Shown piece after piece: positions 7,895-36,239 of a DNA stretch of 40,644 nt (its first letter is position 1; every line of letters begins with the position of its first letter). The translations under genes were made by a program, and so were the position numbers. This DNA comes from a phage, in NCBI GenBank assembly GCA_017062915.1, contig GCA_017062915.1_4331.1; one strand, written 5' to 3'. The notes under the pieces were generated by a model. The model did not search any database, was not told where the DNA came from, and saw only the letters and a list, made by a program, of their open reading frames with translations.

Positions 7895-8182
7895 CTAACT
7901 ATAATAGTTTGCTATTAGGTCGTCAACCTCTTCTTTTGTTCCTACTACAAAAACATTTGCGTCGCGTTTACGAAGCCGTTTGTGTTCCCGCAACTGATGG
8001 GCCTCCGGTTCCGTGTTTTCATCCTTCTTCACCTCTACAAACCATATCACCCCTCCCGGAAGGACAACCAACAGGTCAGGCGCTCCGTTTCTACCCTCGT
8101 ACGACAACTTACGAACGAGGCCCCCAAGGGCCTCGAATTGCTCTTTTGCGTATTTCTGAATCTTGCCCTCAGGCGTACACAT
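7895..8182 (-). CDS. VRR-NUC domain nuclease
   Basis: 95 aa; GAPDLLVVLPGGVIWFVEVKK matches the PD-(D/E)XK-like VRR-NUC core (D..E-V-K). Confidence 0.6.
   Translation of the reverse strand: MCTPEGKIQKYAKEQFEALGGLVRKLSYEGRNGAPDLLVVLPGGVIWFVEVKKDENTEPEAHQLREHKRLRKRDANVFVVGTKEEVDDLIANYYS
7898..7926 (-). promoter_or_regulatory. sigma70-type promoter (TTGACG-N17-TATAGT) with AATAG-N4-CTATT palindrome in the spacer
   Basis: Reverse complement reads GTTGACG, 17-nt spacer, TATAGT; leader shares CACCAACAATA with the promoter at 36211-36239. Confidence 0.55.
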
Positions 8183-14022: not shown

Positions 14023-16290
14023 CTATTCCAAATCTTCCTCCGTAACCACCAGCATTTCATTCGGTTCGTATATTGTCTTCGGAATCTTGTTATCCGTTAT
14101 TCTGGTGTTCAGCCTGTAACGGCCTGGAATTATCTGATTGTTTTCGTCGGTCCCTGGCACAAGATACCCCGCCTCAACCATTTTCTTAATCTTCCCACGT
14201 TCTATGGCTTCTTTGGAGTTAAACGCCTTCGCGTTGGGGTCGGACTGTGCGAGTTTATTCGCTGCAGCTGCCGTGATACCTTCGTTGCCGTTGTAAGTTC
14301 CTTCTGCCAGTTCGAACGCTGCCAGTATCGTGACCTCTGAACTGTTGACGGCGTTCTCTACGGTTTTACGTACGTTTTCTTTACCTTCCTTTGTCAGCCC
14401 TTCTTCCCGCTCTTTCTCCTCGTCAGTCTTGAATGGTTCGAAGCCCCACGGCATCAACACAAGCGCCTTGTGTGGTTCAGGCAGGTCAAGGTTTACGATT
14501 GTGCCGTATTCCTCGGTGCTGCCCAGGAACTCAACCGCGCGGTACTCTTTCGGCGGTGGGGCTTCGCGGAACTGCACAGACTCCAGCGCCATACCAACCG
14601 TCTTCTGTTGAGGGCCATGCTTAAATTTCGAGTGGTATACGTTTATCTGACGGTCGGTCGCGCGTTCAATTGTCAGTTCCACGTCGACGCCCGCATACAG
14701 CGCCCCACTACCACGGGCTTTCTTTCCGCCCTTCGGGGTATGATGGACAACGCCCACCGCAGCTTTAGTCGCGTCACGTACTTCTTTCAGGATGGCGATA
14801 ACTTTACCCATGCCGATTGCCGTCGATGAACTGTTCTCGTCGAACTTATCAATCGTCAGCGCCAACGTCTGGTTAAGGGTATCGAACGCAACCATGCCAA
14901 TTGGCTCGTCGCCAGCAGTTTCACGCATCAGCTTAATCAGGCTTTTCAGTTTGCCGACTTCACCCATATCGATAACGTGGATGTAGTTCTTCCCCTCCTC
15001 GCCATATTTAGCCGCGAGTGCGTCGATACGTGTGCGTGTAGCTGCGCCACCCTCACCGTCGATATAGAAATGGTGGCAACGCTGGGTATCGGCCCCCGCA
15101 AACCGGTATCCAGCGGCGCTCAGGTACATCATCCCCAGCGTATAGAAGGATTTGTACGTGCCGGATTCCCCAACAATATCCCATATGCAATCCGAGGGCA
15201 TGTACCCCTCAACGACGAAATCAGCCTTTACCGGTTCCGGTAACTCGTCCTCCTCTGAGTCCTCGTCGTCTTCCAGGTCATCGAGGCTGCATTCGACCGT
15301 CTCACGCGCGCCCCAGCCGATGGCCTCAGCGACTTCACTGAACGGCAGCCCGGTCGCATCGCACGCATATTTCCACACCTCTTTCGGCGACATACTCTCT
15401 GTTGCCGTAATGTCGGTGTCGTGAATCATTGTTACGTTAGGCGCGGCGTAACCCTCTCGCGGAAAGCACAGCAGGAAATCATCCGGGCGCGGTGTCGGGT
15501 CGCTGTAGTTCTCGGCGTGCTCTGGTGTGGCTGGCATCTTAAGGCCGCGCGACGTCATAACACCGCCATACTCGAACGCAAGTGCCTCAAACGCATCTGT
15601 AAACGCGGTGCGCAGTTCTTCCGGTATCTGGTAGTCAGATGCGCTGCTCACCTCGTGATCCGGGATGCCTTCCAGTAGCTCATCCGGGTCAATCAGGTCG
15701 TTGCGGCGCGACCAGATAACCTGAGAGCCGACCGGCGGCAGGTACATAGGCTGCGAAAGAGTGAACCCACTGCGGTCTGCACCCATGCCTTTGAAGAAGT
15801 GCTCCAGCAATCCGTGGCGGACGCGGATGATGTCACCACCTTCTACCGGGCGGCCTAGTGGCGTGACGACGCGAAAGCGCGGCGACTCGTCGGTATGCGA
15901 TGCCGTGGTGTAAATGCACATGGCTTTACGACTGCGCTTAACCAGGCGCACAGCTTCCTGATACTCTTCCGGCGTCGCACTGTCGAAGTCCAGATAAGCG
16001 AGCGACGATTTGCTTACAGACGCGTCGCAGCGATAGAAGAAGCCTTTACGCGCCTGCTTAAAGTCACTGGTTTCCGGGTCTTTTACGGTGCTGTGCGTTG
16101 AGTCACACGCCGCGGTGATATAACCGGGAGCGGTCTTCGGGTTAACCCCATCGCGAACGGCATCGAGTGGCTGAATTAGCTCTTTCAGGTCGTCCAGTGT
16201 TGCCGTGTGGGTTGTTCTGACGTTTATATCCTTTTTCTCTGCCCGCGCGTTGCGACGAGACCACGAGTAGGATAAAATTACATCGGACAT
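14023..16290 (-). CDS. primase-polymerase (AEP-like) / helicase fusion protein
   Basis: N-terminal AEP-type motifs (AYLDFDS, TASHTDES); C-terminal P-loop ATPase with Walker A GESGTYKS; start set at an internal ATG with RBS AAGGA (the track ORF extends to 16332 from a GTG). Confidence 0.7.
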   Translation of the reverse strand: MSDVILSYSWSRRNARAEKKDINVRTTHTATLDDLKELIQPLDAVRDGVNPKTAPGYITAACDSTHSTVKDPETSDFKQARKGFFYRCDASVSKSSLAYLDFDSATPEEYQEAVRLVKRSRKAMCIYTTASHTDESPRFRVVTPLGRPVEGGDIIRVRHGLLEHFFKGMGADRSGFTLSQPMYLPPVGSQVIWSRRNDLIDPDELLEGIPDHEVSSASDYQIPEELRTAFTDAFEALAFEYGGVMTSRGLKMPATPEHAENYSDPTPRPDDFLLCFPREGYAAPNVTMIHDTDITATESMSPKEVWKYACDATGLPFSEVAEAIGWGARETVECSLDDLEDDEDSEEDELPEPVKADFVVEGYMPSDCIWDIVGESGTYKSFYTLGMMYLSAAGYRFAGADTQRCHHFYIDGEGGAATRTRIDALAAKYGEEGKNYIHVIDMGEVGKLKSLIKLMRETAGDEPIGMVAFDTLNQTLALTIDKFDENSSSTAIGMGKVIAILKEVRDATKAAVGVVHHTPKGGKKARGSGALYAGVDVELTIERATDRQINVYHSKFKHGPQQKTVGMALESVQFREAPPPKEYRAVEFLGSTEEYGTIVNLDLPEPHKALVLMPWGFEPFKTDEEKEREEGLTKEGKENVRKTVENAVNSSEVTILAAFELAEGTYNGNEGITAAAANKLAQSDPNAKAFNSKEAIERGKIKKMVEAGYLVPGTDENNQIIPGRYRLNTRITDNKIPKTIYEPNEMLVVTEEDLE

Positions 16291-16348
16291 GTTGTATATT
16301 CCTTCAGCAAGTAATTTAGCCTCGGCGTTCACGCGTCGGGGCTTTCTT

Positions 16349-16639
16349 TTATCTTTTGGCCAGACATTCCATCAAATGCGCGTACTTACGGTAATAATCT
16401 ACGACAATCTCATCGCCGAAATACTGATAAATGTACGCTAAGTGGTCAGAGACACCGATGGAGGCCGACATTGTGCTGAGTCTTCGGAGACTAATCAACT
16501 GCAATTCTTCTGTAACGCAAAACGGTGAATAAGAGTCCAGCTTACAAGAAACGTTAAAGCACAACGCGTACTCGCCTTGCGCTAAATAAACCATATAAGC
16601 ATTGTCGTTCTCTTTATCGTGGAAAATTACACCTTTCAT
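16349..16639 (-). CDS. hypothetical protein
   Basis: 96-aa ORF coupled to the AlpA-like gene. Confidence 0.45.
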   Translation of the reverse strand: MKGVIFHDKENDNAYMVYLAQGEYALCFNVSCKLDSYSPFCVTEELQLISLRRLSTMSASIGVSDHLAYIYQYFGDEIVVDYYRKYAHLMECLAKR

Positions 16640-16806
16640 TTCACGTTCTCCTTAATCCACGCTTCAACTTTATTACGGTCAAATGTTCCCGGTAAACGGC
16701 GGCCCATTACTTTAACGCTGCAATCAGGAAACTTTCCACTCTTAATCCAGTTATTAATCGTCTGGCGGGTGACGCCAATTAATTCTGCGACTTCATTGAT
16801 AGTCAT
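16636..16806 (-). CDS. AlpA/excisionase-like helix-turn-helix DNA-binding protein
   Basis: MTINEVAELIGVTRQTINNWIKSGKFP is the MerR-type winged-helix pattern of AlpA/Xis regulators; start at ATG with RBS GGAG; the track's N-terminal extension (TTG start) is rejected. Confidence 0.6.
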   Translation of the reverse strand: MTINEVAELIGVTRQTINNWIKSGKFPDCSVKVMGRRLPGTFDRNKVEAWIKENVK

Positions 16807-16846
16807 TTCACGCTCTCCTGTGTAAGATGTATCGAAGTATAAGGCG

Positions 16847-16886
16847 GTAACTTTGTAAAAGCAACCAAAACCGAACACAAAGTTAC
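16847..16886. promoter_or_regulatory. inverted repeat GTAACTTTGT-N20-ACAAAGTTAC overlapping a candidate leftward promoter (TTGCTT-N17-TATACT)
   Basis: Perfect 10-bp inverted repeat; one half-site lies in the spacer of the putative promoter of the AlpA-like operon. Confidence 0.45.
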
Positions 16887-16911
16887 TAAGATACAAAAGA
16901 TGCTACTGGTA

Positions 16912-17165
16912 TTGACTTTTACTTAAAAATATGCTAAGCTTCACTGAGCTTGTGAGATATCGCAAGCGACCGCGGAGCGGCAGGGAACGCAACGCGTGCC
17001 ATTAGGCACTTGAGTGTAGTTCCGCTGGCGCTTTCGGAAGGGCCAAAGTCTATTGTTAATCCCACCTAAATACCCAAGTCACTGATAATTAAAAGTTTCT
17101 ATAGTTTCCGTGAGCAAGGTGGAAAGTACTTCACTCCGCTGGGGCGGGCTAACGCCCGCCCACTG
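16912..17165 (+). ncRNA. candidate promoter-proximal structured RNA element, copy 1
   Basis: TTGACT-N17-TAAGCT promoter (16912-16940), about 200 nt without a credible ORF, GC hairpin GGGCGGGC-TAAC-GCCCGCCC at 17142-17161; paralogous to 28022-28259. Confidence 0.4.
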
Positions 17166-17219
17166 CGTTGCGTACTCTTTTAAGAAACGAAAGAATCACA
17201 ACGGCAACGTAACTATCTC

Positions 17220-17248
17220 TTGCACGCCCCAACATAATAGGATACTAT
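17220..17248 (+). promoter_or_regulatory. early-class promoter TTGCAC-N17-TACTAT with AATAG-N4-CTATT palindrome
   Basis: Near-identical module at 18728, 27927(-) and 36211(-); leader TTATCGAAACGAGACAGAGGAG supplies the RBS. Confidence 0.55.
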
Positions 17249-17282
17249 TCACTTATCGAAACGAGACAGAGGAGTGAAGGTT

Positions 17283-17474
17283 ATGTTTAAGAAGGGTCAG
17301 TTGGTTAAATGCGCCGACGGTAAACACGGTGTGATTGAATTAAAATCCGCTTTATTTCCGGGAGAGTACATAGTTACTGTGCAAAAGGTGAGAGGAGTAA
17401 ATTCGGTGGCATACGTAGCGGAAGAGAATTTAAAACTAATCGGCAACAATTTTAAATTCAAAGGGGCGAAGTGA
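17283..17474 (+). CDS. hypothetical early protein
   Basis: RBS AGAGGAG 8 nt upstream of the ATG; first gene after the early promoter. Confidence 0.5.
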   Translation: MFKKGQLVKCADGKHGVIELKSALFPGEYIVTVQKVRGVNSVAYVAEENLKLIGNNFKFKGAK

Positions 17475-17680
17475 TGCAAATCATAATTACAGATAACACC
17501 ATTACCTATGAAACGGCTAACGATACTCTGGAAAGCATAGGTGTAAATATAGGCGATGTTTTTGATGTACTGGATTCATGTAACGGCGGCTGGTGGATTA
17601 AAACCGGGCGCTACACTATACCGGTTACTAAGGATGAGGCGAAGATATACACATCGGCATCGGATAAAGAGGCGAAGTGA
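17471..17680 (+). CDS. hypothetical early protein
   Basis: 69 aa, ATGA-type overlap with the upstream gene. Confidence 0.5.
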   Translation: MMQIIITDNTITYETANDTLESIGVNIGDVFDVLDSCNGGWWIKTGRYTIPVTKDEAKIYTSASDKEAK

Positions 17681-17883
17681 TGCAAGAATTATTTGAAGAA
17701 CTGAAACATCATGAACTAGAAGAAGTGCATTTCATAATTGACCATTACAAAGTCACTTTATTAGACGGTACAACCATTTCTTCAGGGGCAAGTGACGATT
17801 TGTTGAAATTTTTACGTTTACTACGAACGGCATCGAATCATGATGCTCGTGCCGACGACTCTGAGGGAGGTTGCCGTAAATGA
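17677..17883 (+). CDS. hypothetical early protein
   Basis: 68 aa, coupled. Confidence 0.5.
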   Translation: MMQELFEELKHHELEEVHFIIDHYKVTLLDGTTISSGASDDLLKFLRLLRTASNHDARADDSEGGCRK

Positions 17884-18071
17884 GAATTCGAATAACTGAT
17901 GTTGATTATGTTCTTCCGCCGGGGTATGGCGACCACTCACTGCGCTACTTTGGTGTTTCGGTAGGTGATGAGTTCGAGGTTACGTCCAGTAATGACTACG
18001 GATGCACAGTCGAACATTGTGGCGAGGAACTGTACGTGCGTAGACGTGAATATGTGATTATTGAGGACTAA
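17880..18071 (+). CDS. hypothetical early protein
   Basis: 63 aa, coupled. Confidence 0.5.
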   Translation: MRIRITDVDYVLPPGYGDHSLRYFGVSVGDEFEVTSSNDYGCTVEHCGEELYVRRREYVIIED

Positions 18072-18074
18072 GTT

Positions 18075-18218
18075 ATGAGAGAAGCATTCGAACGGTGGGC
18101 CGTCGTAGAGGGGCTGCCGGTTAACAAGGGTTCGAAGAAAGAGTACCTGAACGTTAAGACGCGTCTCGCGTGGCGGGCGTGGAAAGCTGGTGTACAAGCT
18201 ATTCTGAATAAGGGGTAA
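18075..18218 (+). CDS. small hypothetical protein (47 aa)
   Basis: ATG with RBS GAGGA; fills the gap between flanking genes; below the track cutoff. Confidence 0.4.
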   Translation: MREAFERWAVVEGLPVNKGSKKEYLNVKTRLAWRAWKAGVQAILNKG

Positions 18219-18221
18219 GTT

Positions 18222-18416
18222 ATGAGCGAGTGGATTACGTGTAGTGAGCGGATGCCGGAGCATTTCCGTGATGTGCTGGTAACCAATGGCGTGGATGTAG
18301 AAGTTAAATGGCTTGATGAAAATTACTGCTGGGATAGTTTCACGGAGAACAATTCAAATATTCGTAGCTGCGACGTGGTGTACTGGATGCCGTTACCGCA
18401 GCCGCCAGAATTGTGA
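18222..18416 (+). CDS. DUF551-like phage protein
   Basis: 64 aa; C-terminal WMPLPQPP resembles the conserved DUF551 tail. Confidence 0.5.
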   Translation: MSEWITCSERMPEHFRDVLVTNGVDVEVKWLDENYCWDSFTENNSNIRSCDVVYWMPLPQPPEL

Positions 18417-18458
18417 TGTTATATTGTAACAATAGTTTGAGATTTTACTGAGTGACTT

Positions 18459-18495
18459 ACGCTGCTACACAGCAGCGTATCATTTTTCTCATTTT
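18459..18495 (+). terminator. rho-independent terminator
   Basis: ACGCTGCT-ACAC-AGCAGCGT followed by ATCATTTTTCTCATTTTT. Confidence 0.55.
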
Positions 18496-18549
18496 TGTCC
18501 TATTTCACTAAACGCAACAATCGAAGTGACTATTGCAGGAGATGCAACG

Positions 18550-18720
18550 ATGAAACTGAATGACATCGTAACCTGGACCGGCAGAAACGGAGAAAAGCGA
18601 TTCGGGCTTATTGTTGAGTCAAACGGCAACAAGTACCGTGTTATGCGATGGCGTCAGTGGGCCAGACGTCCAAGGTACTACTGGATTCGTAGTGAACGAT
18701 TATCTTTAAAACACCAATAA
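18550..18720 (+). CDS. hypothetical protein
   Basis: ATG with RBS AGGAG at 8 nt spacing (track start 18526 less likely). Confidence 0.45.
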   Translation: MKLNDIVTWTGRNGEKRFGLIVESNGNKYRVMRWRQWARRPRYYWIRSERLSLKHQ

Positions 18721-18727
18721 AATTTAC

Positions 18728-18756
18728 TTGCACACTGAGATATAATAGGCTACTAT
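18728..18756 (+). promoter_or_regulatory. early-class promoter TTGCAC-N17-TACTAT with AATAG-N4-CTATT palindrome
   Basis: Same module as 17220-17248; leader CACAAACGAGAGGAGAGACAAGG. Confidence 0.55.
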
Positions 18757-18796
18757 TCATTTACACAAACGAGAGGAGAGACAAGGTGAAAGAGTT

Positions 18797-19000
18797 ATGA
18801 CCAGCATCTTATTTATCTGGGTGCTGTCCGCAGGCCAGATGCAACTGGCGGCATCAGAAACGTTTTATTCGATGGAGGCGTGCCAGTCAGCGGCACGCGC
18901 CGCAGAGAACGCGCACTTTCTGTTTCAGGGTGACAAGCCCAACGATTCAGAGGTACGTGCTATCTGCTCACCTAAGCGACTTGGTAAACAGGAGAAGTGA
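18797..19000 (+). CDS. hypothetical protein with hydrophobic N-terminus
   Basis: 67 aa; N-terminal MTSILFIWVLSAGQMQLAA looks like a signal/anchor segment. Confidence 0.45.
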   Translation: MTSILFIWVLSAGQMQLAASETFYSMEACQSAARAAENAHFLFQGDKPNDSEVRAICSPKRLGKQEK

Positions 19001-19179
19001 TTATGGTACAGAGATACTCTAATAACGGGTTTTGTGTAGCGGACGCTGACGGTGGATACGTTAAATACGAAGACTATGTGAAACTCGAAGCCGAGTTACA
19101 GAAATACAAAGACCAGTTTCCGGATTACGTCGAGTGCGCGAACTGTGGGTCAATTACGCATGTGGAAGGGGTGGAGTGA
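18997..19179 (+). CDS. hypothetical protein
   Basis: 60 aa, coupled; CANCGS near the C-terminus. Confidence 0.45.
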   Translation: MIMVQRYSNNGFCVADADGGYVKYEDYVKLEAELQKYKDQFPDYVECANCGSITHVEGVE

Positions 19180-19346
19180 TGTCGTTAGCAACTGATATCC
19201 TGAAACGAAGCGGCCTTGCACCGCTGTCACCACGTAAAAGACATTTCAACACGCGTCCGACGTATCTTGAGTTACATGAGCGCCGGAAGACACCCGCACA
19301 ACGACTGGCTGAATATTGGAATAAGAGATATTCGGATAAATCCTAA
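19179..19346 (+). CDS. small basic hypothetical protein (55 aa)
   Basis: ATG overlaps the upstream TGA (TGATG); RBS GGGGTGGAG. Confidence 0.4.
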   Translation: MSLATDILKRSGLAPLSPRKRHFNTRPTYLELHERRKTPAQRLAEYWNKRYSDKS

Positions 19347-19398
19347 CCGTGGTATCCTCCAGGTACAGCATACTAAATACGCACCTGGAGGATTCATC

Positions 19399-19707
19399 TT
19401 GGATAAATTTACTGAAACAGTGACGGGCTGGCTTCTGGCTGCCGCACTAGCTGGCGGGGTAATAGGCTTACGACAACACAAAGCCACTATTACCGGCCCT
19501 GTCGATGCTCTCTGTTTTCTCGCCACTGGCTTTGCGTGTGCCGTATTCGGTGCGCCTCTCGCCGCTCAATGGTTCGGTATCGCAGGTGAACGCGAAATAG
19601 CGGGCCTTGGATTCATCATTGCTATTCTCTGGATGCCGATTTATTCCCGTCTCTCTGGCATTGTCGCCGGAGAATACATCGCACGTCGCGGAGGTGGTAA
19701 TGAATGA
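19399..19707 (+). CDS. holin-like membrane protein
   Basis: About three predicted TM segments (GWLLAAALAGGVIGL, LCFLATGFACAVFGAPL, GFIIAILWMPIY); TTG start 7 nt after SD GGAGG; immediately upstream of the endolysin. Confidence 0.5.
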   Translation: MDKFTETVTGWLLAAALAGGVIGLRQHKATITGPVDALCFLATGFACAVFGAPLAAQWFGIAGEREIAGLGFIIAILWMPIYSRLSGIVAGEYIARRGGGNE

Positions 19708-19981
19708 ATTATTCTGGTTTGGCGGTATGCTCGCAATCGGAGGTACATCGCTGTTTAACGTATACCACCCCAGTGTGGACGATGGCCTGTTTGGCCGTGT
19801 GCTGTATATCCTCACCGCTATTGTCTGCGCTGCCGGTTGTATTCACCTGTTACATGGCAGCATGTCGCCGACGCTGCCGGAAACACTAATCACCCTGGTA
19901 GCGCTGCGACAGATTCGTCAGTCGTGGCTGCATTACCAGTCGAAAGGAGGACATAAGCGTGTCTCGAAACATTTCAGATAA
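19700..19981 (+). CDS. second holin/antiholin-like membrane protein
   Basis: 93 aa, two hydrophobic helices and a basic C-terminus; ATG overlaps the upstream gene end, RBS GGAGGTGG. Confidence 0.45.
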   Translation: MNELFWFGGMLAIGGTSLFNVYHPSVDDGLFGRVLYILTAIVCAAGCIHLLHGSMSPTLPETLITLVALRQIRQSWLHYQSKGGHKRVSKHFR

Positions 19982-20465
19982 TGGATTGCAGTTCAAGAAA
20001 GCGTGGGAGAAGTTTCGCGGAACTGCCTACAAAGCAACAAAGAACGAAAAATACTGGACTATAGGCTGGGGCCATACCGGGCCTGAAGTGTACGAAGGGC
20101 AGAAGATTACCGAAGGTCAGGGACTTCTGCTACTGAACCGCGATATGCAGTGGGCAGTGAAAGCAGTTGATGAAGTCGCGCACCCCTCACTGACCCAGGC
20201 CCAGTTTGATGCTGTTGTCGACCTGGTGTTCAACGCCGGAACTGGCGTGATTGCGGCTACTACTGGCACGTGTAAGGCACTACGGCAGGGAGACATCCCT
20301 ACTCTACGACACAAGATGAGTCAGTTTATCAACCAGCGTAACCCGAAAACCGGTAAACTTGAGCCTGTGCTTGGCCTACGCCGTCGCGTAGCTGGTCGTC
20401 TGGCACTGTTCGACGGTAAACCGTGGCAGGAGGCTGAGGCTATTGGACGCGCGGTGAAAGGTTGA
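19959..20465 (+). CDS. endolysin, phage lysozyme (T4-lysozyme-like GH24 muramidase)
   Basis: GTG start with strong RBS AAAGGAGG; conserved GH24 core KYWTIGWGHTG with upstream Glu; 168 aa. Confidence 0.8.
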   Translation: MSRNISDNGLQFKKAWEKFRGTAYKATKNEKYWTIGWGHTGPEVYEGQKITEGQGLLLLNRDMQWAVKAVDEVAHPSLTQAQFDAVVDLVFNAGTGVIAATTGTCKALRQGDIPTLRHKMSQFINQRNPKTGKLEPVLGLRRRVAGRLALFDGKPWQEAEAIGRAVKG

Positions 20466-20581
20466 TAGACTAACGACAACAGAAGATTAAACAACATTAA
20501 GGGCATTCCGGGTATCATCACCCTCGCGGACCTGTAACAAGGTCGAGCCAAAGTGCGGTAACGCGCGCCGGAGAATCTCTG

Positions 20582-20610
20582 TTGACACCTAAGACTAATC
20601 CTACGATACT
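20582..20610 (+). promoter_or_regulatory. sigma70-type promoter TTGACA-N17-GATACT driving a very short terminated transcript
   Basis: Perfect -35, 17-nt spacer; predicted start about 40 nt before the terminator at 20652. Confidence 0.4.
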
Positions 20611-20651
20611 TAAATCACCTCCTGTTCCATCCCTCTGCTCTCCAGTTTTAT

Positions 20652-20681
20652 CCCGGCACTGACCCAGCCGGGATTTTTTTT
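20652..20681 (+). terminator. strong rho-independent terminator
   Basis: CCCGGC-ACTGACCCA-GCCGGG followed by eight T. Confidence 0.7.
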
Positions 20682-20703
20682 ATCTATTTTCTGCAATGAC
20701 TAG

Positions 20704-20732
20704 TTGACTATTACTCTGACACCAATTATATT
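20704..20732 (+). promoter_or_regulatory. sigma70-type promoter TTGACT-N17-TATATT for the 20766-22626 operon
   Basis: Good -35 and -10 with 17-nt spacer, about 35 nt upstream of the first RBS. Confidence 0.45.
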
Positions 20733-20765
20733 TACTCCATCGACAACGAGAACGGAGTAGAGAAG

Positions 20766-20915
20766 ATGAAAATAACAGATATCGAAGCATTCAAAGACGC
20801 ACAACTTATGGCACGTATCGCCGTTAGTAATCTCAGCACTGCTGTACCTGCGGACGCGTTCTGGTTCGCTGCGATGCAGACACTGAAAGCAGCTTATGCA
20901 GGAGAGAAGAAATGA
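20766..20915 (+). CDS. small hypothetical protein (49 aa)
   Basis: RBS GGAG; stop overlaps the next start (ATGA). Confidence 0.4.
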   Translation: MKITDIEAFKDAQLMARIAVSNLSTAVPADAFWFAAMQTLKAAYAGEKK

Positions 20916-21070
20916 CCGTTTATATTGTTACTGGTTGGCGATGTCTGCGTGATATAGAAATTATTAACGTGTTTGCAAATGAAGAGAAGGCCAAAAAAGC
21001 TGCGGAGTTAGTGCGAACCGCTGGCTACTACGATGTTGTTGAAATTAATAATTACGAGGTCGAGCAATGA
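20912..21070 (+). CDS. small hypothetical protein (52 aa)
   Basis: ATGA overlaps at both ends. Confidence 0.4.
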   Translation: MTVYIVTGWRCLRDIEIINVFANEEKAKKAAELVRTAGYYDVVEINNYEVEQ

Positions 21071-21225
21071 GTGAACAAACACCAATCAGCCAACCGTTAC
21101 GAGTAGGCCGTAAAGTCAGTCACACCCCGTTCCCGACACGCGAGGAGCTGATGAAACGTAACAGTTTCCCGGGGCCGGACAAGAACAAGTATCTCAATCG
21201 CATGTGGGGAGCGCGTAAAGAATGA
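21067..21225 (+). CDS. small hypothetical protein (52 aa)
   Basis: ATGA overlaps at both ends. Confidence 0.4.
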   Translation: MSEQTPISQPLRVGRKVSHTPFPTREELMKRNSFPGPDKNKYLNRMWGARKE

Positions 21226-21458
21226 CTGACCGTGAATACGAAAAGATGATGGTAGAGGCCGTTAACGGCGGCGTAGACGTAAGCCACGTGATGCACGTCC
21301 TGAATACTAAAATCGCAGTAGCGGAGCAAATGGTAGAGTCGCTTTACGAGACTCGCCGTGAACTGATTAACCGCTTCAACCTGAACAAGGGGTGCGCTAT
21401 TTCTGACGATTTCGATGGGGATTACCGAAATGGAGATTTTTATGAGGGGGCCGAATAA
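21222..21458 (+). CDS. hypothetical protein
   Basis: 78 aa, coupled. Confidence 0.5.
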   Translation: MTDREYEKMMVEAVNGGVDVSHVMHVLNTKIAVAEQMVESLYETRRELINRFNLNKGCAISDDFDGDYRNGDFYEGAE

Positions 21459-21697
21459 TGCCTAAAATCACAATCGCGTCACTCGATCGCCGTATTCTGG
21501 TGCTTGAGTCGGAGAAACAGACGTTAGGCGGGCAACTGTCTATCAACGGCGAGTTTCAACTGGAGGCGTTTAAGTTGCTTCTTGCTAAGTTGAAGGAGGA
21601 CGAAAAGCCTTGCGAGCACGATTACTACCTACATGTGGTCGGTGGATTACATCGAGCCACGTGCATTAAATGTGGTGAAGCGTATGGAGTCGCCTAA
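21458..21697 (+). CDS. hypothetical protein with C-terminal Cys/His cluster (zinc-ribbon-like)
   Basis: 79 aa; CEHDYYLH...CIKCGE spacing consistent with a small zinc-binding fold. Confidence 0.5.
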   Translation: MPKITIASLDRRILVLESEKQTLGGQLSINGEFQLEAFKLLLAKLKEDEKPCEHDYYLHVVGGLHRATCIKCGEAYGVA

Positions 21698-21866
21698 ACC
21701 AGTAGTCATTGATGGCGTCCTGTGGAAACCGTACTCGGTTAACCACATCGACGCCGACGGGAAGAAGTTCAGCTTCTACATTTTTGCAATTAGCCGTGAG
21801 CACGCCGCTTGTGTGGTTGACGATATAAGAGAAACGGCGTGGCTTGGTGATGAGATAGTGGGGTGA
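21684..21866 (+). CDS. hypothetical protein
   Basis: Start placed at the internal ATG (MESPKPVV); the track ORF starts at 21633 and overlaps the previous gene. Confidence 0.4.
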   Translation: MESPKPVVIDGVLWKPYSVNHIDADGKKFSFYIFAISREHAACVVDDIRETAWLGDEIVG

Positions 21867-21953
21867 GGATATGAGCCTTGAAGTGGTTATAGGTTTAGTT
21901 GGTCTTAGTTATTTTATCGGGTTGGCTGTCGGCTTTCTGTGGGGTAGATACTA

Positions 21954-22124
21954 ATGTTCAGTGACATCGCCGCGGCAATCGAAGAAGCAATCTGGCGTCG
22001 CTACAACGGCGAGCAACAAAGACACTTCTGCCTCGTGCAGCGCGGTAACATGATTGCCGTGGTGCAGGACCGGGATAATAAATACCCAAATGCGATGTGG
22101 ACGACGAGGAATTTCTTAGGATGA
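21954..22124 (+). CDS. small hypothetical protein (56 aa)
   Basis: Fills the gap between 21866 and 22121; TGA overlaps the next ATG. Confidence 0.35.
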   Translation: MFSDIAAAIEEAIWRRYNGEQQRHFCLVQRGNMIAVVQDRDNKYPNAMWTTRNFLG

Positions 22125-22357
22125 TTACCAGCATTCCGAACCTGATTAAAGAATACGGCACGATGGCTGAGACATGCCGACAAACCGGCATCAACGAAAT
22201 GACGATTCGCAAGTACAGCAAAGACGTAGACTGCGAGCGCCATGTAATTTATAACAACCGACTGATGACGCACGTTAAGACAAGCCCGGTGCTATTCACA
22301 CGCCGCGGCATCACGAAGACTGAGCAACGTATCGCACGAGAGGAGAGTGGGGAATGA
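22121..22357 (+). CDS. hypothetical protein
   Basis: ATG start with ATGA coupling preferred over the track GTG at 22097. Confidence 0.45.
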   Translation: MITSIPNLIKEYGTMAETCRQTGINEMTIRKYSKDVDCERHVIYNNRLMTHVKTSPVLFTRRGITKTEQRIAREESGE

Positions 22358-22626
22358 TTGAATATGATAACTACCACATAAACCGGTGTGAGGCACTTGA
22401 ATTTTTGTCCAGAAACTTCCACGATTTCCCGGAATGCATGCCTAATGTACGCGAAGTTGCAGAGGGTATTTCCGAGAACATATTCAAAGGTTGGCGATTC
22501 GTCGTTATTGATTCCGGTGAGTTGGTTTTCGCGGATTGCCTTTCACCATGTATCCGTAAAATAGACCTTGAGGAATTTAATGCAACTTTTAGTCTTTCCG
22601 AATGCCTGGGCAATCGCTGTATCTAA
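22354..22626 (+). CDS. hypothetical Cys-rich protein
   Basis: 90 aa, coupled; last gene before a terminator. Confidence 0.5.
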   Translation: MIEYDNYHINRCEALEFLSRNFHDFPECMPNVREVAEGISENIFKGWRFVVIDSGELVFADCLSPCIRKIDLEEFNATFSLSECLGNRCI

Positions 22627-22685: not shown

Positions 22686-22708
22686 AGCCCTCTACGGAGG
22701 GCTTTTCT
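22686..22708 (+). terminator. rho-independent terminator
   Basis: AGCCCTC-TACG-GAGGGCT followed by TTTCT. Confidence 0.6.
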
Positions 22709-22802
22709 GTACATCCCGCCCAATCCCCTTATATAATCCCTTTAGACGCGTAGGGCGCGTCTGATGCGCTCTGATGGTCAGACGCATATGTCAGGGGGTT
22801 AT

Positions 22803-27656: not shown

Positions 27657-27682
27657 AGGCCCCTTACGGGGCCTTAGTTTTA
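27657..27682. terminator. bidirectional rho-independent terminator
   Basis: AGGCCCC-TTAC-GGGGCCT flanked by T-rich sequence on both strands; between convergent genes. Confidence 0.6.
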
Positions 27683-27892
27683 TTCATGCGTCGCTGCTCT
27701 AAAATTAAGTTCTTCACGAGGGATAAAACCTCTATCAGTTTTTACGTAACAAGTTGTGTAACTGTACATTACCTCTCTGCCTGTGATATCTCCGTAGTTC
27801 TCACACTCGTGTTTATCTAAGCTGCGTACACCAACAGCAGTTACCAGTAAAACCGCCGATACCGTCAATACCGCTTTAATTAAGTCTTTCAT
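27680..27892 (-). CDS. small secreted protein (signal peptide plus about 45-aa two-Cys domain), accessory gene
   Basis: N-terminal MKDLIKAVLTVSAVLLVTAVGVRS signal-like segment; own early-class promoter; reverse orientation inside the forward late block. Confidence 0.5.
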   Translation of the reverse strand: MKDLIKAVLTVSAVLLVTAVGVRSLDKHECENYGDITGREVMYSYTTCYVKTDRGFIPREELNFRAATHE

Positions 27893-27926
27893 CTTTAAAT
27901 TCCTTATCTCTCGTTTCGATAACTGA

Positions 27927-27955
27927 ATAGTACCCTATTATATTGGTGTCTGCAA
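27927..27955 (-). promoter_or_regulatory. early-class promoter TTGCAG-N17-TACTAT with AATAG-N4-CTATT palindrome
   Basis: Same module and leader (TTATCGAAACGAGAGATAAGGA) as the promoter at 17220. Confidence 0.55.
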
Positions 27956-28274: not shown

Positions 28275-28661
28275 ATGAATCTTAAAGCAACTGTCGTAGC
28301 GGGAGCATGTTTCATCGTCCTGTTATATGCACACGGCATCTACCAGTACCGCGTCGGCTGGAACGAAGGCCGGGCGAATATCATTTCGCAGCAACAGCAG
28401 AAAGCACAGGCTGAGTTAGCGAAGAAAACACAACGGCAGCAGCAGGACGAATCAAAGGCCGCAGCCGCTGACAACGAAGGCAAGACGAAATCAGAGGTGA
28501 TTACCCGTGAAGTCGTTAAGTACATTAGAACGCCTGGTCGCAGCGTGTGCACTTTCGATGATGCTCGCGTCCTGCTCAAGTCCCGTGCCATCGCAAACGC
28601 CAATTCCATCCCCGGATACGACGATGATGCAGCCGCCATGCAAGCTGGCTCTGCCAAGTAG
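28275..28661 (+). CDS. inner-membrane spanin (Rz-like)
   Basis: N-terminal TM segment, Gln/Ala-rich coiled-coil region, RBS AAAGGAG; contains an embedded lipoprotein gene in another frame. Confidence 0.6.
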   Translation: MNLKATVVAGACFIVLLYAHGIYQYRVGWNEGRANIISQQQQKAQAELAKKTQRQQQDESKAAAADNEGKTKSEVITREVVKYIRTPGRSVCTFDDARVLLKSRAIANANSIPGYDDDAAAMQAGSAK

Positions 28662-36180: not shown

Positions 36181-36210
36181 TTTAAAACCCTCTATTGTTG
36201 GTGTAAGTGA

Positions 36211-36239
36211 ATAGTACGCTATTATATTGGGGTGCGCAA
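36211..36239 (-). promoter_or_regulatory. early-class promoter TTGCGC-N17-TACTAT with AATAG-N4-CTATT palindrome
   Basis: Same module as 17220, 18728 and 27927; drives the reverse-oriented cassette 34183-36180. Confidence 0.55.

What the first reader, a model, noticed from the sequence alone, without database searches (positions are those of the whole stretch)
17283..22626. Two arrays of tiny, translationally coupled early ORFs of unknown function
About twenty ORFs of 27-90 aa are packed with ATGA/TGATG overlaps at 17283-19346 and 20766-22626, each array behind its own promoter. None shows a recognisable enzymatic motif; one has a Cys/His cluster (21458-21697), one is DUF551-like, and several share short Gly-X-Val beta-like signatures that may indicate paralogy. 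Such early arrays are where phages usually encode host-takeover and anti-defence proteins, so they are the best place in this window to look for new inhibitors.
Basis: inference. Interest (0 to 1): 0.5.

Follow-up and report, generated by a model that had tools for sequence, protein, structure and literature searches.

The report
Small accessory gene arrays of a Kagunavirus
The twenty tiny genes are real, conserved protein-coding genes in the well-known accessory regions that flank the lysis genes of K1G-like (Kagunavirus) coliphages; their functions remain unknown and nothing yet marks them as anti-defence genes.

Summary
There are 20 plus-strand ORFs of 27-90 aa at 17283-19346 and 20766-22626. 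Each has a Shine-Dalgarno-like sequence, and most overlap or abut their neighbour. Nineteen match PHROG families and four match Pfam families (DUF551, DUF7336, DUF2737, NinH). Pooled dN/dS against relatives is 0.03-0.42, so they are genes.

The window is a new Kagunavirus, about 87% identical in DNA to its closest relatives. These arrays are that group's usual blocks of "hypothetical proteins" around the holin-holin-endolysin cassette.

- There are three promoter-led units, not two. P1 leads g1-g6. P2 leads g8-g10 plus the lysis genes. P3 leads g11-g20.
- "Early" expression is unproven.
- Only one paralogous pair exists, g2/g4.
- Gene content mixes a subfamily-wide core gene (g8, probably exported), genus-wide conserved genes, and swappable cassettes.

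No ORF resembles a known anti-defence, defence or enzyme family. The Cys/His ORF (g15) models as a helical hairpin plus a zinc ribbon, with no informative structural match.

One by-product is a conserved promoter-terminator unit at 20582-20681 that could make a CU-rich RNA of about 65 nt.

Overall this is an ordinary feature of low to moderate interest.

The parts
17220..17248 (+). Promoter P1: TTGCAC-17 nt-TACTAT, containing the inverted repeat AATAG-N4-CTATT, followed by a conserved leader AACGAGA..GGAG. It precedes g1.
   Evidence: This is one of four near-identical copies in the window, where 0.96 would be expected by chance. It is almost invariant in 9 relatives. The same motif was published as a PHIRE 'phage promoter' for Kagunavirus fBC-Eco01 (PMC9825357; annotated).
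17283..17474 (+). g1 (63 aa, basic). The N-terminal 9 and C-terminal 12 residues are conserved and the centre is hypervariable. It may be a small beta-barrel.
   Evidence: It matches phrog_12538 at E=3e-13. Relatives are 44-54% identical in protein although the promoter in front is about 98% identical. dN/dS is 0.37. Only sub-threshold PDB hits were found, to PsaE and the SH3 region of Dda.
17474..17680 (+). g2 (68 aa, acidic), a paralogue of g4 and probably an SH3-like small barrel.
Evidence: hhalign of g2 against g4 gives probability 95.5%, E=1.4e-8, over 59 columns. It matches phrog_5684. dN/dS is 0.19-0.23.
17680..17883 (+). g3 (67 aa; the start could instead be GTG 17725). It is a cassette whose last 18 codons are the tail that ends g2-type genes in relatives.
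   Evidence: 17674-17824 has no DNA match in 9 relatives. Residues 18-67 are 94% identical in other Kagunaviruses. The shared C-terminal tail ASNHDARADDSEGGCR is seen. dN/dS is 0.20 from one comparison.
17880..18071 (+). g4 (63 aa, acidic), a paralogue of g2.
   Evidence: It matches phrog_10916 at E=4e-11. dN/dS is 0.21.
18075..18218 (+). g5 (47 aa, basic).
   Evidence: It matches phrog_15836 at E=1e-34. It is present in 9/9 relatives at 85-94% identity. dN/dS is 0.25.
18222..18416 (+). g6 (64 aa), a DUF551 domain protein that diverges quickly between relatives.
   Evidence: It matches Pfam PF04448 at E=2.1e-12, 48.2 bits against a cut-off of 22. Relatives are 32-56% identical. dN/dS is 0.42.
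18458..18496 (+). Hairpin TACGCTGCT-acac-AGCAGCGTA followed by a T-rich tail. It is terminator-like (T1) and ends the g1-g6 unit.
   Evidence: It was found by the terminator scan. The hairpin is invariant in 9 relatives, but the T-run is present in only about half of them.
18550..18720 (+). g7 (56 aa, very basic, pI 11.5). No promoter of its own was recognised.
   Evidence: It matches phrog_9384 at E=3e-16. It is present in 6/9 relatives at 89-96% identity. dN/dS is 0.14.
18728..18756 (+). Promoter P2, of the same type as P1 (TTGCAC-17 nt-TACTAT with AATAG-N4-CTATT).
   Evidence: The hexamers are invariant in 9 relatives, while the 'TATAAT' inside the spacer is not. It is annotated as 'phage promoter7' in fBC-Eco01.
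18797..19000 (+). g8 (67 aa). It has an N-terminal hydrophobic segment and two invariant Cys residues, so it is probably exported or membrane-anchored. It is a core gene of the whole subfamily.
   Evidence: tblastn finds it in 475 phage records, 351 of them Salmonella phages. dN/dS is 0.043. C29 and C57 are invariant. The family is confined to contigs of about 40-45 kb, and every member that carries a source name is called hypothetical. It matches phrog_3766 at E=4e-36.
19003..19179 (+). g9 (58 aa). It has a conserved MVQRY start and a conserved C-terminal half containing CxxC, with a variable middle.
   Evidence: It matches phrog_29624 at E=2e-30. The alignment is. dN/dS is 0.24.
19179..19346 (+). 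g10 (55 aa, basic). It is shorter than the 97-aa homologues in most relatives.
   Evidence: It matches phrog_9632 over residues 1-36 only. Relatives cover 69% of it, except one at 100% coverage and 89% identity. dN/dS is 0.23-0.27.
19399..20465 (+). Lysis cassette in the same unit as g8-g10: holin II (19399-19707), holin I (19700-19981) and endolysin (19959-20465).
   Evidence: These match phrog_2359, phrog_2508 and phrog_7/33703, at E=1e-29 to 1e-36. Relatives are annotated the same way.
20582..20681 (+). Short conserved unit. It has a promoter TTGACA(20582-87)-17 nt-GATACT(20605-10), an unstructured CU-rich stretch of about 35 nt beginning CACCUCCU, a hairpin at 20650-20674 and a U8 run. It is a candidate RNA of about 65 nt, and it also serves as the terminator (T2) of the lysis unit.
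   Evidence: See the promoter scan, the sequence and the fold. In 9 relatives, similarity begins exactly at the -35 hexamer. Of 40 IMG/VR contigs chosen by the downstream P3 promoter, 39 keep both hexamers although the spacer varies. Indels of 2 and 4 nt between genera rule out coding. There is no Rfam family match, only sub-threshold hits to CU-rich sRNAs.
20704..20732 (+). Promoter P3: TTGACT-17 nt-TATATT, a sigma-70 consensus type. It precedes g11.
   Evidence: See the promoter scan. The hexamers are near-invariant with a variable spacer in 9 relatives and 40 metagenomic sequences.
20766..20915 (+). g11 (49 aa; helical on my reading of the sequence, no prediction was run).
   Evidence: It matches phrog_2180 at E=1e-25. 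It is present in 9/9 relatives. dN/dS is 0.14.
20912..21070 (+). g12 (52 aa), a DUF7336 protein and a sporadic cassette.
   Evidence: It matches Pfam PF24024 at E=3.8e-13, 49.5 bits against a cut-off of 25. It is present in 1/9 relatives, at 38% identity.
21067..21225 (+). g13 (52 aa, basic), a DUF2737 protein.
   Evidence: It matches Pfam PF10930 at E=8e-10, 38.9 bits against a cut-off of 25. It matches phrog_4684 at E=1e-31. dN/dS is 0.22.
21222..21458 (+). g14 (78 aa, with an acidic C-terminus).
   Evidence: It matches phrog_1402 at E=3e-22, and also the N-terminal part of phrog_268. dN/dS is 0.13.
21458..21697 (+). g15 (79 aa). It has an invariant N-terminal helical hairpin and a C-terminal zinc-ribbon-like module, C52-x-H54...C69-x2-C72.
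   Evidence: The AlphaFold2 model has pLDDT 84.3, with helices at 6-22 and 29-47 and three strands. There were 282 clusters at E<=0.001; the best 120 were listed, and every one that carries a source name is called hypothetical. In 67-aa variants the Cys/His module is replaced. No significant PDB match was found and BFVD returned only its own family. dN/dS is 0.12.
21684..21866 (+). g16 (60 aa). It overlaps g15 by 14 nt.
   Evidence: It matches phrog_10509 at E=1e-34. It is present in 9/9 relatives at 93-100% identity. dN/dS is 0.056.
21871..21954 (+). g17 (27 aa), a single hydrophobic helix and so a putative membrane peptide.
   Evidence: It is conserved in 7/9 relatives. There are 79 synonymous against 29 non-synonymous differences, giving dN/dS 0.058. 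It has no PHROG match.
21954..22124 (+). g18 (56 aa), conserved across the genus.
   Evidence: It occurs in 111 phage records at 90-98% identity, with a few at about 50% in phages outside the subfamily with genomes of about 72-73 kb. dN/dS is 0.030. It matches phrog_5407.
22121..22357 (+). g19 (78 aa), a NinH-family protein with a Fis-like helix-turn-helix DNA-binding region.
   Evidence: It matches Pfam PF06322 at 30.1 bits against a cut-off of 29.8. BLASTP against lambda NinH gives 37% identity over 51 aa, E=3e-11. It matches phrog_268 at E=9e-31. dN/dS is 0.068. The function of lambda NinH is described in PMC7166090.
22354..22626 (+). g20 (90 aa, 6 Cys, acidic), a sporadic cassette.
   Evidence: It is absent from 9/9 sampled relatives. 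It occurs in 14 phage records, including Hafnia, Klebsiella and Salmonella phages. The conserved core is GELVFADCLSPCI. dN/dS is 0.23. The AlphaFold2 model is poor, at pLDDT 58.
22686..22737 (+). Terminator T3 (AGCCCTC-tacg-GAGGGCT followed by TTTT), then promoter P4 (TGTACA-18 nt-TATAAT) for the terminase and structural genes.
   Evidence: See the sequence and the promoter scan. Both are invariant in relatives.

Best explanation
The two arrays are the standard accessory-gene regions of a virulent Kagunavirus (Guernseyvirinae). They lie on either side of its holin-holin-endolysin cassette.

Shown:
- All 20 ORFs are genuine protein-coding genes under purifying selection.
- They are packed so that termination of one gene and initiation of the next overlap or abut.
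- They sit in three conserved promoter-to-terminator units. P1 leads g1-g6 and ends at a hairpin. P2 leads g8-g10 plus the lysis genes and ends at T2. P3 leads g11-g20 and ends at T3. Whether each unit is one transcript has not been measured.
- P1 and P2 are copies of a phage-specific promoter and leader element. That element also precedes a DNA-repair exonuclease gene and a small membrane-protein gene elsewhere in the genome.
- Gene content is layered. There is one subfamily-wide core gene (g8). There is a genus-wide conserved set (g5, g11, g13-g19). The rest are exchangeable or fast-diverging cassettes (g1 centre, g2-g4, g6, g7, g9, g10, g12, g20).

Inferred:
- Cassettes are swapped by recombination at short conserved gene ends. 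These ends carry the ribosome-binding site and start codon of the next gene.
- The proteins are small binding or regulatory modules, not enzymes. They include a Fis-like DNA binder (NinH), a zinc-ribbon protein, SH3-like barrels, an exported disulfide-bonded peptide and a membrane peptide. They probably adjust host or phage processes during infection.
- Array 2 is the counterpart of the lambdoid nin region.

Which proteins, if any, counter host defences is unknown.
For: Identity of the region:
- DNA identity to more than 100 Kagunavirus genomes is 84-90%, with the same gene order.
- There is no match in E. coli genomes.

Coding status:
- Shine-Dalgarno motifs precede every ORF.
- dN/dS is 0.03-0.42.

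Transcription units:
- The promoter element repeats four times, and the same motif is published for a relative (PMC9825357).
- All signals are conserved in relatives, with invariant hexamers and variable spacers.
- The identity of the lysis genes is shown.

Layered content:
- g8 is in 475 records, g18 in 111 and g20 in 14.
- The presence/absence matrix is and the mosaic coverage map.

Cassette junctions:
- g1 has conserved ends and a variable centre.
- g3 shares the C-terminal tail of g2-type genes.

Protein types:
- g19 matches lambda NinH at 37% over 51 aa, E=3e-11, and NinH is a Fis-like DNA binder (PMC7166090).
- The g2/g4 profile match is, with weak SH3 hits.
- DUF551, DUF2737 and NinH are families seen in lambdoid phages.
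Against: - No transcript, ribosome-profiling or proteomic data exist for this phage, so operon boundaries and timing are inferred from sequence signals alone.
- The T-run after the 18458 hairpin is missing in about half of the relatives, so that hairpin may not be a terminator.
- g7 has no recognisable promoter.
- Function is unknown for 19 of the 20 proteins. 'Small binding modules' rests on size, composition and weak fold hints.
- The SH3-like assignment is sub-threshold.
- The dN/dS values pool non-independent pairwise comparisons. For g1, g6 and g12, synonymous sites are at or near saturation.
Confidence: 0.75

Rival explanations
1. The arrays are early-expressed islands of host-takeover and anti-defence genes. 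Most of the small proteins would inhibit bacterial immune systems or shut down host functions in the first minutes of infection.
For: - The proteins are small, lack enzyme motifs and are tightly packed behind promoters next to the replication module.
- Some genes diverge fast or occur sporadically, as arms-race genes do. g1 is 44-54% identical and g6 is 32-56% identical between close relatives. g12 and g20 are present in few genomes.
- Several are acidic (g2, g3, g4, g6, g9, g14, g20), like some DNA-mimic inhibitors.
- Machine-learning tools flagged small ORFs of the close relative EcoPhCCP1 as candidate anti-CRISPRs, without validation (PMC12919940).
Against: - There is no similarity to any characterised inhibitor in Pfam, NCBIfam, PDB sequences or BFVD.
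- Kagunavirus isolates are highly sensitive to restriction-modification systems and variably to Old (PMC11990801). Guernseyvirinae are also sensitive to Ec2ApeA.
- Half of the ORFs are strongly conserved, not variable.
- g8-g10 share a unit with the lysis genes.
- RNA-seq of a relative places NinH in the 'middle' class.
Confidence: 0.2
2. The second half of array 1 (g8-g10) belongs functionally to the lysis module. In particular g8, a small exported or membrane-anchored protein with a disulfide bond, would regulate lysis timing (like an antiholin) or act in the envelope, for example in superinfection exclusion.
For: - g8-g10 lie between promoter P2 and the holin genes, with no terminator before T2 at 20650-20681.
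- g8 sits upstream of the holins in both Kagunavirus and Jerseyvirus.
- Its hydrophobic N-terminal segment, rich in Ser, Ala and Gly, and its two cysteines are invariant.
- It is present in essentially every Guernseyvirinae genome, which fits a life-cycle function better than an accessory one.
Against: - It has no sequence similarity to any known antiholin, spanin or exclusion protein.
- The spanin is encoded elsewhere, at 28275-28661 (phrog_2536).
- In relatives, up to six unrelated genes separate P2 from g8, and an HslV-like peptidase can lie between g8 and the holins. The linkage could therefore be positional only.
Confidence: 0.2
3. A substantial share of the tiny ORFs are not genes. They would be chance open frames in regulatory or spacer DNA that annotation pipelines propagate from genome to genome.
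For: - Very short ORFs of 27-56 aa are easily over-called.
- g17 has no PHROG or Pfam match.
- The start of g3 is ambiguous.
- g10 is a shortened version of a longer gene.
Against: - Synonymous changes exceed non-synonymous changes per site by 2.4-fold to more than 30-fold for 19/20 ORFs, including g17.
- 19/20 match independent family profiles.
- Ribosome-binding motifs are at the right distance for all of them.
- The genuinely non-coding conserved stretch at 20582-20681 behaves differently, with indels of 2 and 4 nt.
Confidence: 0.04

Closest known systems
Small-ORF regions flanking the lysis cassette in Kagunavirus and other Guernseyvirinae, for example fBC-Eco01 genes 057-078, fPoEco01 PE1_051-076 and BASEL phages Bas70-76
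   Same: - The gene order is the same: helix-turn-helix gene, divergent promoter region, small ORFs, two holins, endolysin, small ORFs including NinH, terminase.
- DNA identity is 84-90%.
- The promoter motif and terminators are the same.
- The PHROG families are the same.
   Different: - This window has a different combination of cassettes, and no database genome covers more than 74% of the region.
- It lacks the 150-230-aa genes and the HslV-like peptidase that many relatives carry between P2 and g8.
- It carries g12 and g20, which are rare.
The nin region of lambdoid phages (lambda ninB-ninI)
   Same: - It is a run of small, overlapping genes, mostly of unknown function.
- It contains a NinH homologue (37% identity) and DUF2737/DUF551-type families that also occur in lambdoid phages.
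- It is mosaic, with exchange at gene boundaries (established knowledge of lambdoid genome mosaicism).
   Different: - Here it lies between the endolysin gene and the terminase genes of a virulent phage, not between the replication genes and Q.
- It has no NinB, NinG or NinI homologues.
- It has its own sigma-70-type promoter and does not depend on read-through from pR.
Early-gene or anti-defence clusters of model phages, such as T7 class I genes, T4 early small ORFs and anti-CRISPR loci
   Same: The proteins are small, mostly orphans, densely packed behind strong promoters, and partly variable between close relatives.
   Different: - No member is homologous to a characterised inhibitor.
- Timing is unknown.
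- Part of the array is co-oriented and apparently co-transcribed with the lysis genes.
- The phage group is phenotypically sensitive to restriction.
Lambda pR'-6S RNA-tR' unit, and CU-rich anti-Shine-Dalgarno sRNAs (for the 20582-20681 element only)
   Same: - A constitutive-looking promoter is followed within about 65 nt by a strong intrinsic terminator next to the lysis genes.
- The 5' part is single-stranded and CU-rich, like sRNAs that pair with ribosome-binding sites.
   Different: - No Q-type antiterminator gene was noticed, but I did not search the rest of the window for one.
- The unit lies after the lysis genes, not before them.
- No Rfam family reaches threshold.
- No target has been established.

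Membership tests
Kagunavirus (Guernseyvirinae) accessory small-ORF regions | Nucleotide similarity and shared gene order with sequenced Kagunavirus genomes | tested here: met
   453 phage records match at 84-90% identity. The structural half of the window is 87% identical to the closest genomes. Synteny is seen in 9 annotated relatives.
Kagunavirus (Guernseyvirinae) accessory small-ORF regions | The group's repeated promoter motif (published consensus tgAATAGTa-ccTATTat-T on the opposite strand) | tested here: met
   There are four copies with at most 1 mismatch, two of them heading array 1. The published motif is in PMC9825357.
Pfam DUF551 (g6) | Profile match above the gathering score over the whole domain | tested here: met
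   48.2 bits against a cut-off of 22, covering profile positions 1-68 of 68.
Pfam DUF7336 (g12) and DUF2737 (g13) | Profile match above the gathering score | tested here: met
   g12 scores 49.5 bits and g13 scores 38.9 bits, both against a cut-off of 25.
NinH (g19) | Sequence homology to lambda NinH, including the Fis-like helix-turn-helix region | tested here: met
   The Pfam PF06322 score is 30.1 bits against a cut-off of 29.8, which is marginal. BLASTP against lambda NinH gives 37% identity over 51 aa, E=3e-11, spanning the helix-turn-helix region.
NinH (g19) | Homodimer that binds and bends DNA | not testable with these tools
   This was shown only for lambda NinH (PMC7166090).
Known anti-defence or host-takeover proteins | Sequence or fold similarity to a characterised inhibitor | tested here: not met
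   There are no hits in Pfam or NCBIfam for any of the 20 ORFs. PDB sequence searches covered g15, g16, g18 and g20 singly and g1 and g2/g4 as profiles, with no hits. The g15 model has no informative fold match. No dedicated anti-defence library was available.
Known anti-defence or host-takeover proteins | Measured inhibition of a defence system or host process | not testable with these tools
   Only indirect evidence exists: the genus is reported as sensitive to restriction-modification systems (PMC11990801).
Phage early genes | Transcribed in the first minutes of infection from host-RNA-polymerase promoters | tested here: inconclusive
   Promoters of the sigma-70 kind are present and conserved. 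Timing cannot be read from sequence. P2 also serves the lysis genes. RNA-seq of a relative calls NinH and the lysozyme 'middle'.
Paralogous gene family within the arrays | Significant profile-profile similarity between ORF families | tested here: met
   This is met only for g2/g4, at probability 95.5%, E=1.4e-8. The next best of 190 pairs reaches 49.6% over 12 columns, which is explained by a shared recombined tail.
Zinc-ribbon proteins (g15) | Four metal ligands on two knuckles of a small beta-ribbon | tested here: met
   C52, H54, C69 and C72 are conserved wherever the module is present. The model shows three strands at residues 56-77 with pLDDT of about 80. Local matches are to zinc-finger or zinc-ribbon pieces only. 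Metal binding was not tested.
Rfam small-RNA families (element 20582-20681) | Covariance-model score at or above the gathering threshold | tested here: not met
   There are no gathering-level hits in the window. The best sub-threshold score is 23.8 bits against a threshold of 50.

The most novel reading that the evidence does not exclude

(a) The promoter-terminator unit at 20582-20681 is conserved across both Kagunavirus and Jerseyvirus. It may encode a CU-rich small RNA of about 65 nt whose first 8 nt equal the 16S rRNA anti-Shine-Dalgarno sequence. Such an RNA could pair with ribosome-binding sites of phage or host mRNAs. As far as my literature searches showed, no regulatory RNA has been reported for this subfamily.

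(b) g8 may be a previously unrecognised exported core protein of all Guernseyvirinae, acting in the cell envelope.
Probability: 0.3. Interest if true: 0.55.

Novelty: new member of a known kind. Interest (0 to 1): 0.28.

Why it matters
The arrays themselves matter little. They are one more instance of the blocks of hypothetical proteins found in every Kagunavirus genome.

The analysis does sort the 20 genes into useful groups for anyone who uses these 40-45 kb phages in therapy or synthetic biology:
- core: g8
- genus-conserved: g5, g11, g13-g19
- swappable or fast-diverging: g1, g2-g4, g6, g7, g9, g10, g12, g20

The conserved genes are poor candidates for deletion. The variable genes are the sensible first candidates for host-interaction screens.

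The analysis also gives a conserved map of promoters and terminators, and flags a possible regulatory RNA that annotation pipelines currently cover with spurious ORFs.

Tried and rejected
- NCBIfam and PADLOC scans of all 20 proteins found nothing, apart from one insignificant helix-turn-helix-level hit for g19.
- PDB sequence searches with single sequences (g15, g16, g18, g20) and with profiles (g1, g2/g4) gave only E>0.08.
- The AlphaFold2 model of g20, built from a 16-sequence alignment, had pLDDT 58. That is too poor for a fold search, so none was run.
- Fold searches with the g15 model against PDB and BFVD returned no functional analogue.
- g8 as a spanin was rejected. It has no lipobox, and an Rz-like spanin is encoded at 28275-28661.
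- Broad paralogy among the ORFs was rejected, because 189 of 190 family pairs are at background.
- I looked for a phage mRNA target of the candidate RNA. No exact complement of 12 nt or more exists in the window. The best duplex is -34.7 kcal/mol, inside the minus-strand ORF near 6835-6855. It is not at a ribosome-binding site and I did not check its conservation, so I do not rely on it.
- The supplementary tables of the K1B4 RNA-seq paper did not list which genes were called early.
- Window-wide Rfam and tRNA scans found nothing.

Full report
**What the window is**

The region 17000-22700 matches 453 phage records at 84-90% nucleotide identity. Almost all are Escherichia Kagunavirus or Salmonella Jerseyvirus (subfamily Guernseyvirinae), and no record covers more than 74% of the region. 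Nothing matches in 5,426 complete E. coli genomes. The structural half of the window is about 87% identical to the closest genomes. The window is therefore most of the genome of a new, virulent, K1G-like siphophage.

The local gene order is as follows:
- On the minus strand: primase-helicase (14023-16332), a 96-aa ORF and a helix-turn-helix gene.
- A divergent control region.
- On the plus strand: array 1, holin II (19399-19707), holin I (19700-19981), endolysin (19959-20465), array 2, and the small and large terminase subunits.

Nine annotated relatives show the same layout. Essentially every small ORF in them is labelled "hypothetical protein".

**Checking the observation**

I count 20 plus-strand ORFs:
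- g1-g10 lie at 17283-19346 and are 47-68 aa long.
- g11-g20 lie at 20766-22626 and are 27-90 aa long.

Each has a GGAG/GAGG-type motif 5-10 nt before its start codon. Of the 18 junctions inside the arrays, 13 are overlaps of 1, 4 or 14 nt, 4 are gaps of 2-4 nt, and 2 are larger gaps.

The ORFs are genes, on three lines of evidence:
- 19 of 20 match PHROG families, many over their full length with E-values from 1e-10 to 1e-40.
- Four match Pfam above the curated cut-off: g6 is DUF551, g12 is DUF7336, g13 is DUF2737 and g19 is NinH.
- Pooled Nei-Gojobori dN/dS against relatives is 0.03-0.42 for 19 of 20. The 27-aa g17 has 79 synonymous against 29 non-synonymous changes, giving 0.058.

These pooled values come from non-independent pairwise comparisons. 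Synonymous sites are at or near saturation for g1, g6 and g12. Even so, the direction of the result is unambiguous.

**Transcription signals**

*Two promoters serve array 1.* The element TTGCAC-17 nt-TACTAT contains the inverted repeat AATAG-N4-CTATT and is followed by the leader AACGAGA..GGAG. It occurs at four places:
- 17220 (+), before g1.
- 18728 (+), before g8.
- 27955 (-), before a 70-aa membrane ORF.
- 36239 (-), before a DNA-repair exonuclease gene.

Four copies with at most 1 mismatch were found, where 0.96 matches to this pattern (at up to 3 mismatches) would be expected by chance. Weaker core copies lie in the replication module. This motif is already published as the PHIRE "phage promoter" consensus of Kagunavirus fBC-Eco01 (PMC9825357), and it is annotated at the equivalent sites of that genome. 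In nine relatives the two hexamers and the palindrome are invariant.

*Array 1 is split.* Between g6 and g7 sits an invariant hairpin at 18458-18479. In this window a T-rich tail follows it, but the T-run is missing in about half of the relatives.

*g8-g10 share a unit with the lysis genes.* No terminator was found between P2 and the strong terminator at 20650-20681. On the sequence signals, g8-g10, both holins and the endolysin form one unit.

*Array 2 has its own promoter and terminator.* It has a sigma-70 consensus-like promoter, TTGACT-17 nt-TATATT, at 20704-20732. It ends at the terminator at 22686-22708. That terminator is followed directly by the terminase promoter at 22708-22737. In relatives these hexamers are invariant while the spacers vary, which is the signature of working promoters.

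**Timing**

"Early" cannot be read from the sequence. The P1/P2 element serves accessory genes, a DNA-repair gene and the lysis cassette alike. The only Kagunavirus transcriptome (phage K1B4, multi-round sampling from 5 to 120 min) reports only four early genes, one of them the helix-turn-helix gene. It puts NinH and the lysozyme in a "middle" class (PMC12645636). Its supplementary tables did not identify the other early genes. I treat timing as open.

**Conservation pattern**

A presence/identity matrix over nine relatives, a coverage map and database-wide tblastn searches show three layers.

| Layer | Genes | Evidence |
|---|---|---|
| Subfamily-wide core | g8 | 475 phage records, 351 of them Salmonella phages; dN/dS 0.043 |
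| Conserved across the sampled Kagunavirus relatives | g5, g11, g13-g19 | Present in 9 of 9 relatives (g17 in 7), mostly at 85-100% identity; g18 is in 111 phage records database-wide, dN/dS 0.030 |
| Variable or sporadic | g1, g2-g4, g6, g7, g9, g10, g12, g20 | See below |

Details for the variable layer:
- g1 is 44-54% identical to relatives and g6 is 32-56% identical.
- g2, g4 and g7 are each present in only some relatives.
- g12 is in 1 of 9 relatives.
- g20 is in 0 of 9 sampled relatives. It occurs in 14 records overall, including Hafnia, Klebsiella and Salmonella phages.

The boundaries of variation fall at gene ends:
- g1 keeps its first 9 and last 12 residues while its centre is replaced.
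- The last 18 codons of g3 are the tail that ends the longer g2-type genes of relatives. The 151 bp before that tail have no match in the nine sampled genomes.

I infer that short conserved gene ends carry the next gene's ribosome-binding site and start codon, and that they act as recombination joints for cassette exchange. This matches what is established for lambdoid mosaics.

**Paralogy**

I built family alignments from the relatives and compared all 190 pairs with hhalign. Only g2/g4 is significant, with probability 95.5%, E=1.4e-8, 59 aligned columns and 29% identity. The runner-up is g2/g3 at 49.6% over 12 columns, and that is the recombined tail. Paralogy is therefore real but limited to one pair.

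**What the proteins look like**

No enzyme signatures were found, and there are no NCBIfam or PADLOC matches.

- **g19** is a NinH homologue: 37% identity to lambda NinH over 51 aa, E=3e-11, across the helix-turn-helix region. Lambda NinH is a dimeric, DNA-bending mimic of Fis that is toxic when overproduced (PMC7166090).
- **g6** is DUF551, a portable domain of unknown function also found in YfdS and some Ea22 variants (PMC10834534 and PMC4776307).
  - Its N-terminal 50 residues are nearly invariant.
  - Its C-terminal C-x-H-D...C-x-x-C-G module is conserved where present. Some 67-aa family members replace it, and it recurs on other small proteins of relatives.
  - AlphaFold2 gives a confident model (pLDDT 84.3) of a helical hairpin plus a three-stranded ribbon.
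  - Foldseek finds no significant PDB match, only local zinc-finger or zinc-ribbon pieces at E≥0.16. In BFVD it finds only its own uncharacterised family.
- **g2/g4 and g1** give only sub-threshold hits to SH3-type barrels. This agrees with an HHpred note in the fPoEco01 record.
- **g8** has a conserved hydrophobic N-terminal segment rich in Ser, Ala and Gly, and two invariant cysteines. I infer export or membrane anchoring with a periplasmic disulfide bond. Its family is confined to Guernseyvirinae-sized contigs.
- **g17** is a single hydrophobic helix.
- **g20** could not be modelled usefully (pLDDT 58).

**Anti-defence interpretation**

Nothing found here supports it directly. The BASEL study reports that Kagunavirus isolates are highly sensitive to restriction-modification systems and variably to Old (PMC11990801). 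A preprint reports that Guernseyvirinae are sensitive to Ec2ApeA. The variable genes (g1, g6, g9, g12, g20) remain reasonable candidates for host-interaction functions, but that is a prior and not a result.

**A by-product inside the coordinates**

Between the endolysin gene and P3 lies a promoter, TTGACA(20582-87)-17 nt-GATACT(20605-10), only about 40 nt upstream of the terminator hairpin. The implied transcript of about 65 nt has an unstructured CU-rich 5' part, CACCUCCUGUUCCAUCCCUCUGCUCUCCAGUUUU. Its first 8 nt equal the 16S anti-Shine-Dalgarno sequence. A hairpin and a U8 run follow.

Evidence that it is conserved and non-coding:
- In nine relatives, similarity starts exactly at the -35 hexamer, although there are three different upstream contexts. 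The transcribed part is more conserved than the neighbouring genes.
- In a Jerseyvirus, both hexamers are identical with an unrelated spacer. The CU-rich body is partly kept, and the hairpin keeps pairing through a C:G to U:A change.
- Of 40 IMG/VR contigs selected by the downstream P3 promoter, 39 keep both hexamers. The scan pattern itself required part of the body and the stem, so conservation of those parts is biased.
- Indels of 2 and 4 nt rule out coding.
- Rfam has no family for it. The sub-threshold hits are to CU-rich anti-SD sRNAs.
- I found no convincing target.

Other readings are possible. It could be a lambda pR'-tR'-like antitermination unit. It could also simply be the terminator of the lysis unit with a conserved promoter of another purpose.

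**Verdict**

The feature is an ordinary, already-annotated property of Kagunavirus genomes, seen here in a new combination of cassettes. The functions of 19 of the 20 proteins remain unknown.

Noticed in passing
window 20582-20681 (+): A conserved promoter (TTGACA-17 nt-GATACT) lies about 40 nt upstream of the lysis-unit terminator. It implies a non-coding CU-rich RNA of about 65 nt that begins with the 16S anti-Shine-Dalgarno sequence CACCUCCU. The unit is conserved in Kagunavirus and Jerseyvirus. Annotation pipelines cover this stretch with differing short ORFs.
   Followed up: partly
window 17220-17251 (+), 18728-18759 (+), 27924-27955 (-), 36208-36239 (-); weaker copies at 7901, 11384, 13700 and 13744 (+): A repeated promoter and leader element has the palindromic core AATAG-N4-CTATT overlapping the -10 hexamer. 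The palindrome suggests an operator for a dimeric phage DNA-binding protein, such as the helix-turn-helix gene at 16636-16818 or NinH. The motif is published as a 'phage promoter', although I saw no RNA-polymerase-sized ORF or annotation in the window or its relatives (I did not search for one).
   Followed up: partly
window 18797-19000 (+): g8 is present in essentially all Guernseyvirinae (475 records). It has an invariant hydrophobic N-terminus and two invariant cysteines. It looks like an uncharacterised exported core protein and not an accessory gene.
   Followed up: partly
window 28275-28661 (+): The Rz-like spanin gene (phrog_2536, E=2e-54) lies inside the structural gene block, about 8 kb from the holin-endolysin cassette. 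I did not look for an embedded Rz1.
   Followed up: no
window 27680-27892 (-): A 70-aa membrane-protein ORF sits on the opposite strand inside the structural module. It is driven by its own copy of the P1-type promoter, so it looks like a moron and may be a superinfection-exclusion gene.
   Followed up: no
window 16819-17219: The control region of about 400 bp between the helix-turn-helix gene and P1 carries a GC-rich hairpin at 17144-17163 (GGGCGGGC-taac-GCCCGCCC). The hairpin shows a compensatory C:G to U:A change in relatives, and in other relatives a different hairpin takes its place. fBC-Eco01 annotates a host promoter and a terminator here. It could be another short transcript or an origin-related structure.
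   Followed up: no
window 18417-18549: The non-coding stretch around the 18458 hairpin is almost invariant among relatives, even where the T-run is absent. It is flanked by CAATAG...CTATTG half-sites about 95 nt apart. The hairpin may therefore have a role other than termination.
   Followed up: no
window 6835-6855 (- strand mRNA): This is the best predicted duplex for the candidate RNA: 17 bp, -34.7 kcal/mol, against a window-wide mean of -11.3 and sd of 4.9. It lies inside the 474-aa minus-strand ORF and not at a ribosome-binding site. I did not check its conservation.
   Followed up: no
L003 3720-3974 and L006 3755-4138 (g9 homologues); L007 3018-3743: The zinc-binding module C-E-H-x-W...C-x-x-C-G seen in g15 also appears as a C-terminal extension on g9-type and other small proteins of relatives. 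It therefore behaves as a mobile domain within these arrays.
   Followed up: no
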